Origin: Kagunavirus LF7074P1
Length of the DNA: 41,071 nt
Sequence record: OZ035758.1
Strand: one strand, 5' to 3'
Position numbers and translations under genes: made by a program. Positions 13,001-36,342 of this stretch are shown here, in pieces (within the stretch, counting starts at the first letter, position 1; each line of letters opens with the position of its first letter). The notes beneath the pieces were generated by a model that did not search any database, was not told the DNA's origin, and was given only the letters and a program-made list of their open reading frames with translations.

Positions 13001-13030
13001 TTTAAACCCCTTCATTGTTGGTGTAAGTGA

Positions 13031-13059
13031 ATAGTACCCTATTATATTGGGGTGTGCAA
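13031..13059 (-). promoter_or_regulatory. Sigma70-like promoter P3 (TTGCAC-17-TACTAT) driving the minus-strand cassette
   Basis: Minus strand reads TTGCACaccccaatataatagggTACTATtca, near-identical to promoter P1 at 35039. Confidence 0.6.
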
Positions 13060-28919: not shown

Positions 28920-28948
28920 ACTATAATAGCTAACTATTCAGGTGTCAA
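28920..28948 (-). promoter_or_regulatory. Sigma70-like promoter P5 (TTGACA-17-TATAGT)
   Basis: Minus strand TTGACAcctgaatagttagctatTATAGT. Confidence 0.6.
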
Positions 28949-31421: not shown

Positions 31422-31450
31422 ACTATAATAGCGAACTATTCACTTGTCAA
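31422..31450 (-). promoter_or_regulatory. Sigma70-like promoter P6 (TTGACA-17-TATAGT), leftward early promoter
   Basis: Minus strand TTGACAagtgaatagttcgctatTATAGT. Confidence 0.65.
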
Positions 31451-31474
31451 TGGGCTTTTCTAAAATAATTAATA

Positions 31475-31483
31475 TGGTACTAT
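31475..31483 (+). promoter_or_regulatory. Extended -10 promoter element (TGgTACTAT) for the XRE regulator gene
   Basis: TGn motif directly upstream of TACTAT; no convincing -35; about 30 nt upstream of ATG 31515. Confidence 0.4.
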
Positions 31484-31514
31484 TCACATATCAACTGACT
31501 AAGGAGTAATTGAC

Positions 31515-31747: not shown

Positions 31748-33955
31748 CTATTCCAAATCCTCTTCTGTCACCACCAGCATTTCATTCGGTTCGTATATTG
31801 TCTTCGGTCTTAGTCTATCCCCTATTCTTTCAGGTATACGATACGTTCTCGGTACTACTTCGCCATTAGCATCACAGCCTAGCATTAGTTCACCATCTTT
31901 CAGCATTTTATCAAGATGGGTGTTAGTCACAGAAAAGTCACCGGAACGGGCCACTATCTGCTGCTGAGTAAAACCGCGACCTGTGTCATCTGACTGTTGC
32001 AGGTCTTCCAGTGCCGAAAGTATCGACTCCTTCCTTACTTCATCCCTGCCGCGTTTAACTTCTTCCTTTACTTTTTGTTTACCTTCGTTAGTTAACCCTT
32101 CTTCCCGCTCTTTCTCCTCGTCAGTTTTGAACGGCTCGAAGCCCCACGGCATCAGAACAAGCGCCTTGTGTGGTTCCGGCAGGTCGAGGTTTACGATTGT
32201 GCCGTATTCCTCTGTGCTGCCCAAGAACTCAACAGCACGGTACTCTTTCGGCGGTGGTGCTTCACGGAACTGTACAGACTCAAGTACCATGCCAACCGTT
32301 TTCTGTTGAGGCCCGTGCTTAAATTTCGAGTGGTATACGTTTATCTGACGGTCGGTTGCACGTTCTATTGTCAGTTCCACATCGACACCCGCATACAGCG
32401 CCCCGCTGCCACGGGCTTTCTTTCCGCCCTTCGGTGTATGGTGGACGACGCCCACCGCGGCTTTAGTTGCGTCACGTACTTCTTTAAGGATGGCGATAAC
32501 TTTACCCATGCCGATTGCCGTTGATGAACTGTTCTCGTCGAACTTATCAATCGTCATGGCCAGTGTCTGGTTAAGGGTGTCGAACGCAACCATCCCAATT
32601 GGCTCGTCACCCGCAGTTTCTCGCATTAGCTTAATCAGGCTTTTCAGTTTGCCAACTTCGCCCATATCGATGACATGTACATAATCTTTACCTTCCTCGC
32701 CGTATTTAGCCGCGAGTGCATCAATACGGGTGCGTGTGGCAGCACCGCCCTCACCGTCAATATAGAAATGGTGGCAACGCTGTGTATCAGCGCCTGCAAA
32801 CCGGTACCCGGCGGCGCTCAGGTACATCATACCCAGCGTATAGAATGATTTATATGTGCCGGATTCCCCGACGATGTCCCAGATGCAATCCGACGGCATG
32901 TACCCTTCAACGACGAAATCAGCCTTTACCGGTTCAGGTAACTCGTCATCGTCTTCAAGGTCTTCCAGTGTACAAGTTACAGGCTCCTCGTTCTCTGTGC
33001 GGTGCAGTTCTTCAATCTCTTCATCCGGTAAATCAGGCAGAGCCGCACGAATGCTGTTAATACTGATAGGTTGCTTGTCTACGTTAAGCTCGTCCGGAAG
33101 GCCGCACATACGCAGGGCCAAATGTTGTCGGCGGTTAAGCTCAGTGCAAGCACCGTTGTTTGTGTGCTGGCACACGAAGCGCACTTCTTTACCGTCGAGC
33201 ATGATGCTGGTGGAGCCTTTGCCGGTGTGCAGGTGTTCGTTAGGGCAAGGCACTTCGTACCCGCGACCGGAAGATAAAGCGTCAAGGCCAAGCTCCGCTT
33301 CGCAGAAATGCGCTATATCCGCGTTAAGCCCATGCTCATCGGCAGCAAGGGTCTTAGCTTCACGCTTACGCAACCCCATTTCTTCGGCTTTCTTGATGTA
33401 CCGCTCGGCACGGATAACACGCCCTTCTGTAACCGTTATCTTCGACTCTTTATGCGGCAGGTAGATAAGGCGGTTGCCATCTTCTGTGCAGTGGTCGCGC
33501 AATGCTTCGTCTATTTCTAACTCAGCACAAATAGCACGTTGCACCATCCACGCGTCGTTAGAGTTAAACGGCGTGCGGGCCGGTACAAGAACGCGGAAAG
33601 CGTAGTCACCGTTTTTACACGCGTGCTGGTGCGACGCCGTTGTGTGCAGAATATTGAAGAACGGCGCGTTCTTGAATTTGCGGGTGAGGTCGCGGTACTG
33701 GGTACGGTTTAGATGGTCGAAATCGAACTTAACCACACTGTCTTCCAGAATCGCGTTCTTACGGCGACCGCCAACCGGCGCAATAGCTTTCTGCTTAATC
33801 TTGGCCGCGTCGTACTCTTCCTTAGTCCATGACGGGTCTACGGACAGACGCTTCGATGTATCGCAGACATACTCTACAAACTGCTCCAGTGGCATTTCAC
33901 GGGCTACCGGGTTTTTATCGAAAGTGTTACGCAGCGTTGCAAAAACAATATTCAT
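31748..33955 (-). CDS. Primase-helicase fusion (AEP/PrimPol-type N-terminal domain, Zn-binding region, P-loop helicase C-terminal domain)
   Basis: 735 aa; N-terminal VKFDFDHL (DxD); Cys/His cluster CPNEHLHTGK...CQHTNNGAC; Walker A GESGTYKS. Confidence 0.7.
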   Translation of the reverse strand: MNIVFATLRNTFDKNPVAREMPLEQFVEYVCDTSKRLSVDPSWTKEEYDAAKIKQKAIAPVGGRRKNAILEDSVVKFDFDHLNRTQYRDLTRKFKNAPFFNILHTTASHQHACKNGDYAFRVLVPARTPFNSNDAWMVQRAICAELEIDEALRDHCTEDGNRLIYLPHKESKITVTEGRVIRAERYIKKAEEMGLRKREAKTLAADEHGLNADIAHFCEAELGLDALSSGRGYEVPCPNEHLHTGKGSTSIMLDGKEVRFVCQHTNNGACTELNRRQHLALRMCGLPDELNVDKQPISINSIRAALPDLPDEEIEELHRTENEEPVTCTLEDLEDDDELPEPVKADFVVEGYMPSDCIWDIVGESGTYKSFYTLGMMYLSAAGYRFAGADTQRCHHFYIDGEGGAATRTRIDALAAKYGEEGKDYVHVIDMGEVGKLKSLIKLMRETAGDEPIGMVAFDTLNQTLAMTIDKFDENSSSTAIGMGKVIAILKEVRDATKAAVGVVHHTPKGGKKARGSGALYAGVDVELTIERATDRQINVYHSKFKHGPQQKTVGMVLESVQFREAPPPKEYRAVEFLGSTEEYGTIVNLDLPEPHKALVLMPWGFEPFKTDEEKEREEGLTNEGKQKVKEEVKRGRDEVRKESILSALEDLQQSDDTGRGFTQQQIVARSGDFSVTNTHLDKMLKDGELMLGCDANGEVVPRTYRIPERIGDRLRPKTIYEPNEMLVVTEEDLE

Positions 33956-34080: not shown

Positions 34081-34149
34081 TGTATAATCCTTGTGCTTAC
34101 TTTGATGATTTGTGCTTCGGCCCCGACGTTCTAGCGTTGGGGTTTCTTT

Positions 34150-34440
34150 TTACCGTTTAGCCAACTCTTCCAGCAAATTTTTATACTCTTCAAAATATTC
34201 CTCGACCAAATCATCGCCGAAATAGAAGTCGATATACTCGAGATTATCTCTTACGTTAAGCGACGCAGACATGGTGCTTAGTTGGCGTAAGCTAATTAGC
34301 TTCATTTCTGTTTCTACACAGAAAGGCCGGTAGGTATCGAGGTGGCAAGAGATGTTGAAGCATAAAGCGAACTCTCCCGCCACGGAGTGAACCATATACA
34401 CTTCGTTTTCTGCTTTATTGTGGAAAATTACACCTTTCAT
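34150..34440 (-). CDS. Hypothetical protein
   Basis: 96-aa acidic ORF coupled to upstream HTH gene (ATGA). Confidence 0.45.
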   Translation of the reverse strand: MKGVIFHNKAENEVYMVHSVAGEFALCFNISCHLDTYRPFCVETEMKLISLRQLSTMSASLNVRDNLEYIDFYFGDDLVEEYFEEYKNLLEELAKR

Positions 34441-34619
34441 TTCACATTCTCCTTAATCCATTCTTCAACTTTATTACGGTCAAATGTACCTGGTAAACGG
34501 CGACCCATAACCTTAATACAACAATCAGGGAATTTACCACTGCGCAACCAGTTATTAATTGTCTGACGTGTTACCCCAATACGCTCGGCTACTTCATTCT
34601 GGGTCATGTAATGTTGCAT
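34437..34619 (-). CDS. Small HTH DNA-binding protein (AlpA/excisionase-like fold suggested)
   Basis: 60 aa from ATG 34619 (RBS AGGAG 8 nt upstream); MTQNEVAERIGVTRQTINNWLRSGKFP. Confidence 0.5.
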   Translation of the reverse strand: MQHYMTQNEVAERIGVTRQTINNWLRSGKFPDCCIKVMGRRLPGTFDRNKVEEWIKENVK

Positions 34620-34650
34620 TTTTATATCTCCTGTTTGTTTGGTGAAGCTG

Positions 34651-34679
34651 AGTATAGGATAGCGGGAATGTAAAAGCAA
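34651..34679 (-). promoter_or_regulatory. Candidate sigma70 promoter (TTGCTT-17-TATACT) for the HTH/primase operon
   Basis: Read on the minus strand upstream of the 34619 start. Confidence 0.4.
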
Positions 34680-34716
34680 CCAATCCCTGCAATATTTAAT
34701 CTTTACAAAAAAGTTA

Positions 34717-34746
34717 TTGAAAGTTCTTGACACATGTTTGTATAAT
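34717..34746 (+). promoter_or_regulatory. Candidate rightward sigma70 promoter (TTGAAA-18-TATAAT)
   Basis: Consensus -10 TATAAT at 34741-34746; reads into a non-coding region containing a long hairpin. Confidence 0.4.
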
Positions 34747-34773
34747 GGTTTTGGGACTTGTATATATTACGGA

Positions 34774-34805
34774 GTTGACGAACCCTCCCTGAGGGATTCG
34801 TCAAC
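34774..34805 (+). other. Long perfect inverted repeat / stem-loop (GTTGACGAACCCTC-CCT-GAGGGATTCGTCAAC)
   Basis: ~14-bp perfect stem read directly from sequence; about 30 nt downstream of the candidate promoter at 34717. Confidence 0.7.
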
Positions 34806-34946
34806 CCCTCCCAGACAGCTGAGATGCTTGTTTTAGGGTTTAAGGATAAGTGTATCTAAATCTCATTTAAAGAAGTAACCCACTGAAATATCTACTGTTT
34901 CTTAATGTGCCGTAGATTCGCAACCGTAAAAATGTAACGATTATTG

Positions 34947-34972
34947 GGCAGGCTTAAGGCCTGCCCTTTAGT
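34947..34972 (+). terminator. Weak terminator-like hairpin
   Basis: gggcaggc-ttaag-gcctgccc stem followed by ttt. Confidence 0.35.
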
Positions 34973-35038
34973 TACCAAGTAATAAGAATAAAGGCACAAC
35001 CTTCCCCGAAGAATCACAACGGCAACGTAACTAATCTC

Positions 35039-35067
35039 TTGCACACCCCAACATAATAGGATACTAT
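35039..35067 (+). promoter_or_regulatory. Sigma70-like promoter P1 (TTGCAC-17-TACTAT), rightward early promoter
   Basis: TTGCACaccccaacataataggaTACTAT; conserved leader ...aaacgagacagaggag... to ATG 35102. Confidence 0.65.
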
Positions 35068-35101
35068 TCACTTATCGAAACGAGACAGAGGAGTGAGGGT
35101 T

Positions 35102-35284
35102 ATGTTTAAGAATGGTCAGTTGGTGAAAACAAAGCGCAGCCGGCAACACGTAATAGTTACCAAAGACGAGGATGAATATGGTGTTGTCGCCGTATTTAGC
35201 CTTATACGGAGGAAACATGGTTATGTTCGTCACGATAATTTAGAACTCATCGGCAACAATTTTAAATTCAAAGGGGCGAAGTGA
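35102..35284 (+). CDS. Hypothetical early protein (60 aa)
   Basis: ATG 8 nt after GAGGAG. Confidence 0.45.
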   Translation: MFKNGQLVKTKRSRQHVIVTKDEDEYGVVAVFSLIRRKHGYVRHDNLELIGNNFKFKGAK

Positions 35285-36282: not shown

Positions 36283-36311
36283 TTGCACACTAAGATAGAA
36301 TAGGCTACTAT
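36283..36311 (+). promoter_or_regulatory. Sigma70-like promoter P2 (TTGCAC-17-TACTAT)
   Basis: TTGCACactaagatagaataggcTACTAT; conserved leader ...aaacgagaggggag... to ATG 36343. Confidence 0.65.
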
Positions 36312-36342
36312 TCATTTACACAAACGAGAGGGGAGACAGAAT

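What the first reader, a model, noticed from the sequence alone, without database searches (positions are those of the whole stretch)
34734..35038. ~300-bp non-coding region with promoter, 14-bp-stem hairpin and terminator-like hairpin between divergent early operons
A TATAAT-containing rightward promoter (34717-34746) is followed within 30 nt by a perfect long stem-loop (34774-34805), an AT-rich stretch and a weaker hairpin (34947-34972), with no ORF of meaningful length. It lies between the leftward primase operon and the rightward early operon. Candidates are a small regulatory RNA, a transcriptional attenuator, or the replication origin (hairpin and AT-rich region next to the primase genes).
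Basis: seen in the sequence. Interest (0 to 1): 0.55.

Follow-up and report, generated by a model that had tools for sequence, protein, structure and literature searches.

The report
Early structured non-coding RNA cassette
The 480-bp gap between the two divergent early operons of this lytic E. coli phage (a Kagunavirus) most likely encodes an undescribed structured non-coding RNA of about 217 nt, made from a strong host-type promoter, whose relatives carry reshuffled versions that keep their hairpins through compensatory mutations.

Summary
There is an 11/12 sigma-70 promoter at 34717-34746. A 14-bp hairpin follows at 34774-34805; it has one bulged A, so it is not perfect. A GC-rich terminator-like hairpin sits at 34946-34966, and the region has no conserved ORF. 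The window is Kagunavirus LF7074P1. The non-coding gap is larger than reported, 34620-35101.

About 70 related loci carry four unrelated cassette types in this slot. Each has its own rightward promoter, its own hairpins and a GC-rich 3' hairpin. The 5' and 3' modules reassort.

In the best-sampled type, the hairpin at the equivalent position covaries strongly: 14 of 18 pairs change on both sides, 94% of cells are paired, 0/500 shuffles match, and nearly all wobbles are G.U on the + strand. The window's own 5' hairpin has no variation, so it cannot be tested.

The 3' half (34883-35080) is about 89-95% identical between Kagunavirus and Salmonella Jerseyvirus, more conserved than the flanking genes. 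It matches no Rfam family and I found no paper on it.

Best reading: an immediate-early non-coding RNA gene with a leaky terminator in front of a second, operator-bearing promoter. Its function is not established. A structured leader and a transcript-primed origin remain possible. An iteron-type origin and a coding role are disfavoured.

The parts
34651..34679 (-). PL, the leftward promoter for the HTH and replication operon (TTGCTT-17 nt-TATACT read on the minus strand)
   Evidence: Read directly from the sequence. The equivalent TTGATT-17-TATACT site is called by the scan in the ZCEC5 relative. The sequence is conserved across types B and D. It scores below the scan threshold in the window itself.
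34710..34730 (+). Tandem 10-mer AAAGTTATTG/AAAGTTCTTG (2.1 copies) overlapping the -35 of P1
   Evidence: Tandem Repeats Finder and the repeat finder family D3. Its function is unknown.
34717..34746 (+). P1, a sigma-70 promoter TTGAAA-18 nt-TATAAT; predicted transcription start near 34753
   Evidence: 11/12 match. It is one of three 11/12 sites in the genome. It is invariant in the four type-D sequences aligned, and the module is at least 95.7% identical in 20 phage records.
34771..34808 (+). HP1, the 5' hairpin of the RNA (core 34774-34805: 14 bp, bulged A34796, loop CCT)
   Evidence: -24 kcal/mol, z = -5.4. There is no variation among type-D relatives. The hairpin at the equivalent position in type A covaries strongly.
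34809..34907 (+). Central A/U-rich part of the RNA. It carries the short words TATCT, AAGTA and ACTGA that are shared with all other cassette types.
   Evidence: Four 5-mers are shared across the four unrelated 5' modules, against 0.79 expected (P = 0.005).
34908..34943 (+). S1, a near-invariant stretch TGCCGTAGATTCGCAACCGTAAAAATGTAACGATTA directly 5' of the terminator hairpin
   Evidence: Nearly invariant in all module-iii sequences from both Kagunavirus and Jerseyvirus; the exceptions are a 1-nt shorter A-run in four, and single substitutions in L033 and L023. The middle part is predicted to be unpaired.
34946..34974 (+). HP-T, a terminator-like hairpin (34946-34966) plus the tail TTTAGTTA; the predicted RNA 3' end is near 34969
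   Evidence: Terminator scan hit with 9 pairs, 7 of them G-C. -18.6 kcal/mol, z = -3.3. The stem is conserved and the loop varies in relatives.
34967..35001 (+). S2, a conserved A/T-rich stretch downstream of the hairpin
   Evidence: Near-invariant across genera. It is followed by a variable patch at 35002-35008.
35009..35033 (+). S3, AAGAATCACAACGGCAACGTAACTA. Its core ACAACGGC...ACGTAAC is kept in all four cassette types, also in loci fetched without using it as bait.
   Evidence: It is absent upstream of the other two TTGCAC promoters in the genome. It stays next to module iii where the P2 core lies about 500 nt away.
35039..35070 (+). P2, a second rightward promoter TTGCAC-17 nt-TACTAT, overlapped by the dyad motif ATAATAGGATACTATTCA (35053-35070)
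   Evidence: A 37-nt copy lies at 13060-13024. The motif occurs six times in the genome against 0 expected. It was predicted as a 'phage promoter' in the fBC-Eco01 annotation (PMC9825357).
34883..35080 (+). Block conserved at about 89-95% between Kagunavirus and Salmonella Jerseyvirus
   Evidence: BLAST coverage of query 263-460 in hundreds of Jerseyvirus records. In ZCEC5 vs Kenya-K2, 40-column windows score 0.88-0.95 here, against 0.57-0.90 in the flanking genes.

Best explanation
The gap holds a gene for a structured non-coding RNA of about 217 nt. Inferred: right after DNA entry, host sigma-70 RNA polymerase starts at P1, near 34753. Shown by folding only: the transcript forms a stable 5' hairpin (HP1), an A/U-rich middle, and then the near-invariant stretch S1 next to a GC-rich hairpin with a short U tail (HP-T). 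Inferred: most transcripts end there, near 34969. A fraction probably reads through into the rightward early genes, which also have their own operator-bearing promoter P2. Shown: the locus is modular, and relatives carry four unrelated 5' modules and three 3' modules in a slot of constant size. Shown in relatives: the hairpins are kept by compensatory changes while their sequences drift. S1 is almost unchanged between E. coli and Salmonella phages. Inferred from that pattern: the 5' hairpin serves as a structural or stabilising element, and S1 is the working surface that contacts a partner common to both hosts or both phage genera. What the RNA acts on is not known.
For: P1 scores 11/12 and is among the three best promoter matches in the genome.

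HP1, HP-T and the whole 224-nt transcript fold far better than shuffles (z = -5.4, -3.3 and -4.25).

There is no + strand ORF after the start site. The 59-aa minus-strand ORF is broken by stops or frameshifts in at least 10 relatives. The type-A hairpin varies in length by 2, 5, 12 and 14 nt.

All four cassette types keep a rightward promoter at the same place: C and D at 11/12, A and B with TTGACA or TTGACT, a 17-nt spacer and TAAGNT.

In the type-A hairpin, 18 distinct sequences give 94.1% paired cells against 73.3% in shuffles (0/500). Fourteen of 18 pairs change on both sides (3/500). The covariation score is 0.569 against 0.209 (0/500). Slid controls give 25-44% paired.

Nearly all wobbles in covarying helices are G.U on the + strand. 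On the other strand these would be A.C mismatches.

Type B also shows compensated pairs.

The 3' hairpins of modules iii and i pass the terminator scan.

The non-coding 3' block is more conserved than the neighbouring genes.

The HTH gene that diverges from the same region is an early gene in RNA-seq of a 97%-identical phage (PMC12645636).
Against: No transcript data exist for this RNA; the only RNA-seq study reports genes only.

The window's own HP1 has no sequence variation (20 records, at least 95.7% identical). Its structure is therefore supported only by energy and by analogy with other cassette types.

The U tail is short (TTTAGTTA). The module-ii hairpin does not pass the terminator scan, so some versions may be leaders rather than discrete RNAs.

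Conservation continues downstream of the hairpin (S2, S3), which a terminated RNA does not explain.

Whole-strand folding energy does not favour the + strand.

No target is known. Complementarity to the first gene's ribosome-binding site is not above chance.
Confidence: 0.5

Rival explanations
1. It is a structured 5' leader or attenuator of the rightward early operon, acting in cis. P1 would be the immediate-early promoter of genes 35102 onward. The roughly 350-nt leader, with HP-T as a partial terminator or the tip of a larger 3' domain, would set how much transcription reaches the genes, or control the processing or stability of the long mRNA. P2 would supply a short-leader mRNA later.
For: P1 and the early genes point the same way with nothing coding in between. 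The U tail of HP-T is short, and the module-ii hairpin is not called a terminator. S3 lies beyond the hairpin, is specific to this locus and travels with module iii when the P2 core is displaced. The stretch 34903-35033 folds as one 131-nt domain (z = -3.9).
Against: P2 sits directly before the genes, so a long leader is not needed to express them. The proposed closing helix S1-S3 is not kept: GAATC is deleted in L012 and L023 and mismatched in L008, L022 and L024, with no compensation. No convincing terminators lie inside the rightward operon that would call for antitermination. Anti-RBS pairing is at chance level.
Confidence: 0.2
2. It is a replication origin activated or primed by transcription. 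The P1 transcript would form an R-loop, or supply a 3' end in the A/T-rich S2 region, that the phage family-A polymerase extends. The helicase-primase would load there. This works like ColE1 RNA II or the T7 primary origin.
For: The region lies beside the helicase-primase operon. Its 1-kb bin has the lowest GC in the genome (0.41) and the cumulative GC-skew minimum falls here. No iteron array was found in the window, and no initiator protein is named in the records I read. Those records were only read near this locus, so this is not a whole-genome check. A structured RNA followed by invariant DNA (S2, S3) matches the logic of a primer RNA. The slot size is constant at 377-404 nt.
Against: At 100-nt resolution the skew switch sits at the gene boundary near 34600, and the non-coding part is roughly neutral, so gene orientation explains it. 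Phages with 98-100% identical helicase-primase N-terminal halves carry cassettes D/iii, B/i or B/ii, and module iii occurs with both N-terminal types. S2 is not shared between the 3' modules. There is no direct evidence of initiation.
Confidence: 0.15
3. It is only a DNA-level control region. The gap would hold divergent promoters and protein-binding sites, the inverted repeats would be operators or incidental, and mosaicism would reflect recombination between conserved linkers with no function for the RNA itself.
For: There are three promoters in 480 bp, and a dyad operator motif at P2 is shared with five other sites. A tandem 10-mer overlaps P1. An HTH protein is encoded next door. Short shared words sit at module junctions.
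Against: Operators do not tolerate five or more unrelated sequences of varying length with base-pair-preserving double changes and G.T wobbles on one strand only. The candidate half-site AAGTTAC is only marginally enriched (P about 0.06). The 5' modules differ completely in phages whose HTH proteins are 98% identical.
Confidence: 0.08
4. It is a small protein-coding gene, as some automatic annotations suggest. The candidates are the 33-aa and 59-aa ORFs on the minus strand and the 39-aa ORF on the plus strand.
For: BASEL phage Bas74 annotates two minus-strand ORFs here. Kenya-K2 annotates a 51-aa ORF in the same region.
Against: The 59-aa ORF has in-frame stops or frameshifts in at least 10 relatives. 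The + strand ORFs start upstream of the predicted transcription start. Indels are not multiples of three. The substitution pattern is that of paired RNA.
Confidence: 0.02

Closest known systems
Short promoter-to-terminator RNAs of phage lambda (oop RNA, 77 nt; 6S RNA from PR', 194 nt). Recalled from general knowledge.
   Same: A host-polymerase promoter, a short untranslated transcript, an intrinsic terminator, and phage genes just downstream. Lambda's 6S RNA likewise sits in front of an operon.
   Different: There is no sequence or Rfam relationship. This is a strictly lytic siphovirus. No Q-like antiterminator or antisense target is evident. This RNA is longer and has a covarying multi-hairpin body.
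phi29 pRNA. Recalled from general knowledge.
   Same: An early-transcribed, roughly 170-nt structured phage RNA whose sequence diverges between relatives while its secondary structure is kept.
   Different: pRNA is part of the packaging motor of phages with protein-primed genomes. Relatives of this phage are reported as headful packagers, or had no termini detected (PMC9409062, PMC9825357). There is no similarity in sequence or in predicted fold.
ColE1 RNA II primer and origin. Recalled from general knowledge.
   Same: A sigma-70 promoter, a several-hundred-nt structured RNA whose stems vary between relatives, and a conserved DNA segment at its 3' end next to replication functions.
   Different: No antisense RNA I promoter was found. 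No RNase H cleavage motif was tested. Cassette type is uncoupled from the replication protein. There is no evidence of initiation here.
HK022 put RNA (cis-acting antitermination RNA). Recalled from general knowledge.
   Same: A stem-loop RNA encoded just downstream of an early promoter in a phage with no obvious N-type protein.
   Different: Put has two adjacent stem-loops with conserved features that bind polymerase. Here the 5' hairpin sequence is freely replaceable, and no convincing terminators needing suppression lie in the downstream operon.
Sodalis phage SO-1 (Dhillonvirus) 'region B' repeat region beside a 35%-identical helicase-primase
   Same: A roughly 480-bp non-coding region between the helicase-primase and small early genes. 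It shares the words ACTATTCACT, TTGCACACC and GCAACCAAT.
   Different: SO-1 has seven GCGGGACA iterons. The window has none and instead carries a promoter, a structured RNA and a terminator unit.

Membership tests
Any Rfam 15 RNA family | A covariance-model score at or above the family's gathering threshold | tested here: not met
   There were no hits at gathering on the whole window. The best sub-threshold hit was Hrs12 at 22.6 bits against a cutoff of 70, driven by the terminator. Representatives of cassette types A, B and C gave no hit at E of 0.1 or lower.
Sigma-70 promoter | -35 and -10 hexamers close to TTGACA and TATAAT, spaced 16-18 nt | tested here: met
   TTGAAA-18-TATAAT, 11/12. Activity was not tested.
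Intrinsic (Rho-independent) terminator | A GC-rich hairpin immediately followed by a U-rich tract | tested here: inconclusive
   The hairpin is strong (9 pairs, -18.6 kcal/mol) and passes the scan. However, only three consecutive T follow it (TTTAGTTA), so efficiency cannot be judged from sequence.
Structured non-coding RNA (generic) | Secondary structure kept by compensatory base changes across homologues | tested here: inconclusive
   Met for the type-A and type-B cassettes of relatives. It cannot be assessed for the window's own type-D 5' hairpin, which shows no variation. The window's 3' module is too conserved to covary.
Hfq-dependent small RNA | A terminator hairpin with a long 3' U tail, an adjacent A/U-rich Hfq site, and a conserved single-stranded seed | tested here: inconclusive
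   The conserved unpaired stretch with AAAAAUG lies next to the terminator, but the U tail is short. Hfq binding and targets are not testable with these tools.
Iteron-type replication origin | An array of three or more direct repeats (iterons) beside an A/T-rich region | tested here: not met
   The only repeat is one 2.1-copy 10-mer, at P1. No array was found in the other four non-coding gaps examined, nor by the whole-window tandem-repeat scan. SO-1 shows what such an array looks like.
Transcript-primed origin (ColE1 RNA II or T7 type) | DNA synthesis that starts at the 3' end of, or within the R-loop of, the promoter-driven transcript | not testable with these tools
   Only the position, the low GC and the skew are available, and gene orientation explains the skew.
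HK022 put-type antitermination RNA | A conserved two-stem-loop RNA that makes polymerase resistant to downstream terminators | not tested
   No model was available. The downstream operon has no convincing terminators, and the 5' hairpin is sequence-variable between types.
Packaging (pac/cos) site | Physical genome ends at this position | tested here: not met
   The sidste record starts inside S1 and the horsemountain record appears to start at the same point. The sidste record is a seamless cut of a circular assembly. Members of this group are reported as circularly permuted, or had no termini detected (PMC9409062, PMC9825357).

The most novel reading that the evidence does not exclude
The cassette is the replication start of a lytic phage group in which no initiator protein or iterons were found. 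A host-made, structured primer RNA of the ColE1 RNA II kind would have interchangeable 5' modules, and its near-invariant 3' region (S1 through S3) would be where phage polymerase and helicase-primase take over. A second reading is not excluded either: the interchangeable modules could be variants of an RNA that counters a host defence, diversified by an arms race.
Probability: 0.15. Interest if true: 0.8.

Novelty: new member of a known kind. Interest (0 to 1): 0.55.

Why it matters
Guernseyvirinae (Kagunavirus and Jerseyvirus) are among the most often isolated E. coli and Salmonella phages. They are used in therapy cocktails, as BASEL model phages and as engineering chassis (CM001). Yet their most conserved non-coding segment is either unannotated or mis-annotated as small ORFs.

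A strongly transcribed, structurally constrained and modular early RNA would be a new family for RNA databases. It would also be a tractable case of RNA-module shuffling in lytic phages. It matters for engineering: deleting or inserting at this 'empty' gap could affect early expression or replication.

If the RNA turns out to prime replication or to counter host defence, it would explain how these phages start their cycle.

Tried and rejected
**Known RNA families.** Rfam gave nothing at gathering or relaxed thresholds, for the window or for the other cassette types.

**Host origin.** The conserved block has no match in 5,426 E. coli genomes. An exact S3 search hit only two contigs in 185,579 species genomes, both from metagenome bins.

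**Coding.** The 59-aa minus-strand ORF is broken in relatives.

**Packaging site.** This was suggested by GenBank records that start inside S1. It was rejected because the sidste record is a seamless cut of a circular assembly and the group is reported as circularly permuted, or had no termini detected (PMC9409062, PMC9825357).

**Anti-RBS pairing.** Every cassette has a pyrimidine tract complementary to the first gene's GAGGAGTGAGGG. Duplex energies are no better than for shuffled leaders (z = +0.3 to -1.5, P = 0.08-0.57).

**Long-range S1-S3 helix (TGCCGT-A-GATTC with GAATC-ACA-ACGGCA).** It appears in minimum-energy folds. However, GAATC is deleted or mismatched without compensation in five Jerseyvirus sequences.

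**AAGTTAC-type operator sites.** Enrichment is marginal only (P about 0.06-0.07).

**Whole-strand folding asymmetry.** It was uninformative, because the minus strand folds as well or better. The helix-level wobble test was used instead.

**GC skew as origin evidence.** At fine scale it follows gene orientation.

**Iterons.** None were found.

**Literature.** I found no paper on an RNA, origin or non-coding element at this locus. The one Kagunavirus RNA-seq paper reports genes only.

Full report
**Identity and context.** The window is the genome of Kagunavirus LF7074P1 (OZ035752.1, 100% identity), a lytic siphovirus of the subfamily Guernseyvirinae. The finding lies in the 482-bp gap 34620-35101.
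- On the left, on the minus strand, are a 60-aa HTH_17 protein (34437-34619), two small ORFs and a 735-aa helicase-primase (AAA_25, phrog_3228). A family-A DNA polymerase lies further left.
- On the right, on the plus strand, a string of small genes of unknown function starts at 35102.
- Relatives of this phage are reported as circularly permuted, or had no detectable termini (PMC9409062, PMC9825357).

**The observation.**
- P1 is TTGAAA-18-TATAAT at 34717-34746, 11/12. Only two other sites in the 41 kb reach 11/12, and both face left.
- The first hairpin (34774-34805) has 14 base pairs with one bulged A, so it is not perfect. It folds at -24 kcal/mol with z = -5.4.
- The second hairpin (34946-34966) is not weak. 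It has nine pairs, seven of them G-C, folds at -18.6 kcal/mol and is followed by TTTAGTTA. It passes the terminator scan.
- The 224-nt stretch from the predicted start to the end of that tail folds with z = -4.25.
- No plus-strand ORF of 20 codons starts downstream of the predicted start.

**What else is in the gap.**
- A leftward promoter (TTGCTT-17-TATACT, 34679-34651) sits back to back with P1. Its counterpart in a relative is picked up by the scan.
- Downstream of the second hairpin lies a second rightward promoter, P2 (TTGCAC-17-TACTAT, 35039-35067).
- P2 overlaps the dyad motif ATAATAGGATACTATTCA. That motif occurs six times in the genome against none expected. In two other places it sits in the spacer of 11/12 leftward promoters.
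- The rightward early genes therefore have their own promoter, apparently a regulated one. P1 does not carry the motif.

**Comparative picture.** BLAST found the region in about 400 to 450 phage records. I gathered about 70 loci from phage records, IMG/VR and metagenomes.
- The distance from the HTH start codon to the conserved S3 sequence (35009-35033) is 377-404 nt in nearly all loci. The exceptions are a few with an extra small ORF (533-543 nt) and two outliers (358 and 367 nt).
- The sequence in between falls into four unrelated types:
  - A: Jerseyviruses and some Kagunaviruses.
  - B: fKuEco01-like.
  - C: K1ind2-like.
  - D: the window and 20 near-identical records.
- Each type has a rightward promoter at the equivalent place. 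C and D score 11/12. A and B have TTGACA or TTGACT, a 17-nt spacer and an invariant TAAGNT.
- Each type then has its own hairpins and a GC-rich 3' hairpin.
- The 3' parts come in three forms, and these reassort with the 5' parts. The window combines a private 5' module with 3' module iii, which it shares with type A.

**Evidence that the RNA matters.** The hairpin that occupies the equivalent position in type A exists in 16 to 18 distinct sequence versions of 60-74 nt.
- Folded independently, all adopt the same three-tier hairpin.
- Seven of twelve outer pairs show three different Watson-Crick types.
- On a structure-guided alignment, 94.1% of cells pair, against 73.3% in shuffles (0/500).
- Fourteen of 18 pairs change on both sides (3/500).
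- The covariation score is 0.569 against 0.209 (0/500).
- Sliding the partners drops pairing to 25-44%.
- That alignment was fitted to the model, which favours the structure. The independent folds agree with it.
- Type B also shows compensated pairs.
- Nearly every wobble in these helices is G.U as read on the plus strand, including two positions that are G.U in all ten type-B sequences. On the minus strand these would be A.C mismatches. The folded strand is therefore the one P1 transcribes.
- Length changes that are not multiples of three, and a 59-aa minus-strand ORF broken in at least ten relatives, rule out coding.

**Limits for the window itself.** The window's own 5' hairpin cannot be tested this way, because its 20 relatives are at least 95.7% identical. 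Its 3' module is too conserved to covary. What the 3' module does show is unusual constraint.
- Between a Kagunavirus and a Jerseyvirus that both carry type A, 40-column identity is 0.88-0.95 across the 3' non-coding block.
- It is 0.60-0.78 in the 5' module and 0.57-0.90 in the flanking genes.
- S1, the 36 nt just before the hairpin, is nearly invariant.

**Does the RNA end at the hairpin?**
- Modules iii and i pass the terminator scan. Module ii does not.
- The window's U tail is short.
- Conservation continues past the hairpin (S2, S3). S3 is specific to this locus and stays with module iii in Jerseyviruses whose P2 core lies about 500 nt further on.
- A long-range S1-S3 helix would explain that, but it is not maintained.
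- I therefore favour a discrete RNA with some read-through, and I keep the leader or attenuator reading as the main rival.

**Origin of replication.**
- In favour: the position, the lowest GC in the genome and the cumulative skew minimum, and the absence of iterons in the window.
- Against: the skew follows gene orientation at fine scale.
- Against: cassette type is independent of the helicase-primase. Phages with 98-100% identical N-terminal halves carry D/iii, B/i or B/ii, and module iii occurs with both N-terminal types.
- A distant relative, Sodalis phage SO-1, has a classical iteron region beside its helicase-primase. Nothing like it is present here.
- Only a transcript-primed origin remains possible.

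**Comparison with what is known.**
- No Rfam family matches any cassette type.
- The conserved block is absent from E. coli genomes.
- I found no paper on an RNA or origin at this locus.
- In kind it resembles other short phage RNAs made from a host-type promoter and ended by a terminator, and phi29 pRNA in keeping structure while the sequence drifts. It belongs to none of these families.

**Verdict.** The best-supported reading is an undescribed, modular, immediate-early structured RNA locus. That some RNA-level function exists I put at about 0.7 to 0.75; a discrete RNA gene at 0.5. Its function has not been established. The interest is moderate: it is a new family of a known kind, in a much-used group of phages.

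Noticed in passing
window 13028-13045(-), 28923-28940, 31425-31442, 31469-31486, 35053-35070, 36297-36314: The dyad motif ATAATAGnnnACTATTCA occurs six times against 0 expected. It overlaps the spacer and -10 of TTGCAC-17-TACTAT promoters, and it lies in the spacer of two 11/12 leftward promoters (TTGACA-17-TATAGT at 28948-28920 and 31450-31422). It looks like the operator of a phage regulator. It was published as a 'phage RNA polymerase promoter' consensus for fBC-Eco01, although no RNA polymerase gene is annotated in the records I read. ACTATTCACT also occurs in Dhillonvirus SO-1.
   Followed up: partly
window 31748-33955 (-): The helicase-primase is itself mosaic. Residues 343-735 are shared at 72-95% with Guernseyvirinae generally. 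Residues 1-343 are found at 90% or more in only about 60 records and are replaced in K1ind1 and the Jerseyviruses.
   Followed up: partly
L003 1660-2190, L005 1660-2190, L024 120-650: Some Jerseyviruses (UPWr_S5, VSe103, sidste) carry an extra GC-rich non-coding segment of about 500 nt between S3 and the operator/-10 of P2. It has several strong hairpins, including CTTGCCTTACGGCAAG. It gave no Rfam hit.
   Followed up: no
L020 1508-1522, L029 and other loci with 3' module i: A (CTCA)n microsatellite just before the GGTGCC hairpin varies from three to about seven copies between phages.
   Followed up: no
window 34710-34730: A 10-bp tandem repeat AAAGTTATTG/AAAGTTCTTG overlaps the -35 of P1. It spans two helical turns and could be a protein-binding site.
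   Followed up: no
L072 904-1005 and 1093-1272 (Bas74_0053, Bas74_0054); L002 1341-1496 (K2_046): Automatic annotations place small hypothetical proteins on the minus strand inside this non-coding region. The 59-aa one is interrupted in many relatives, so these are probably false gene calls.
   Followed up: yes
L075 5197-5676 (Sodalis phage SO-1): An annotated 480-bp repeat region lies next to a 35%-identical helicase-primase. It has seven GCGGGACA iterons and four ATTGGTTGC repeats, and is a likely classical origin in Dhillonvirus. ATTGGTTGC also forms the -35 region of the window's leftward promoter (34676-34684).
   Followed up: partly
window 34119-34144: A strong hairpin with a T tract on the plus strand (GGCCCCGACG...GTTGGGGTT TCTTTTT) lies inside the leftward operon, between the 96-aa and 42-aa genes. 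It is oriented to stop rightward (antisense) transcription rather than the operon itself. fBC-Eco01 annotates it as a terminator on both strands.
   Followed up: no
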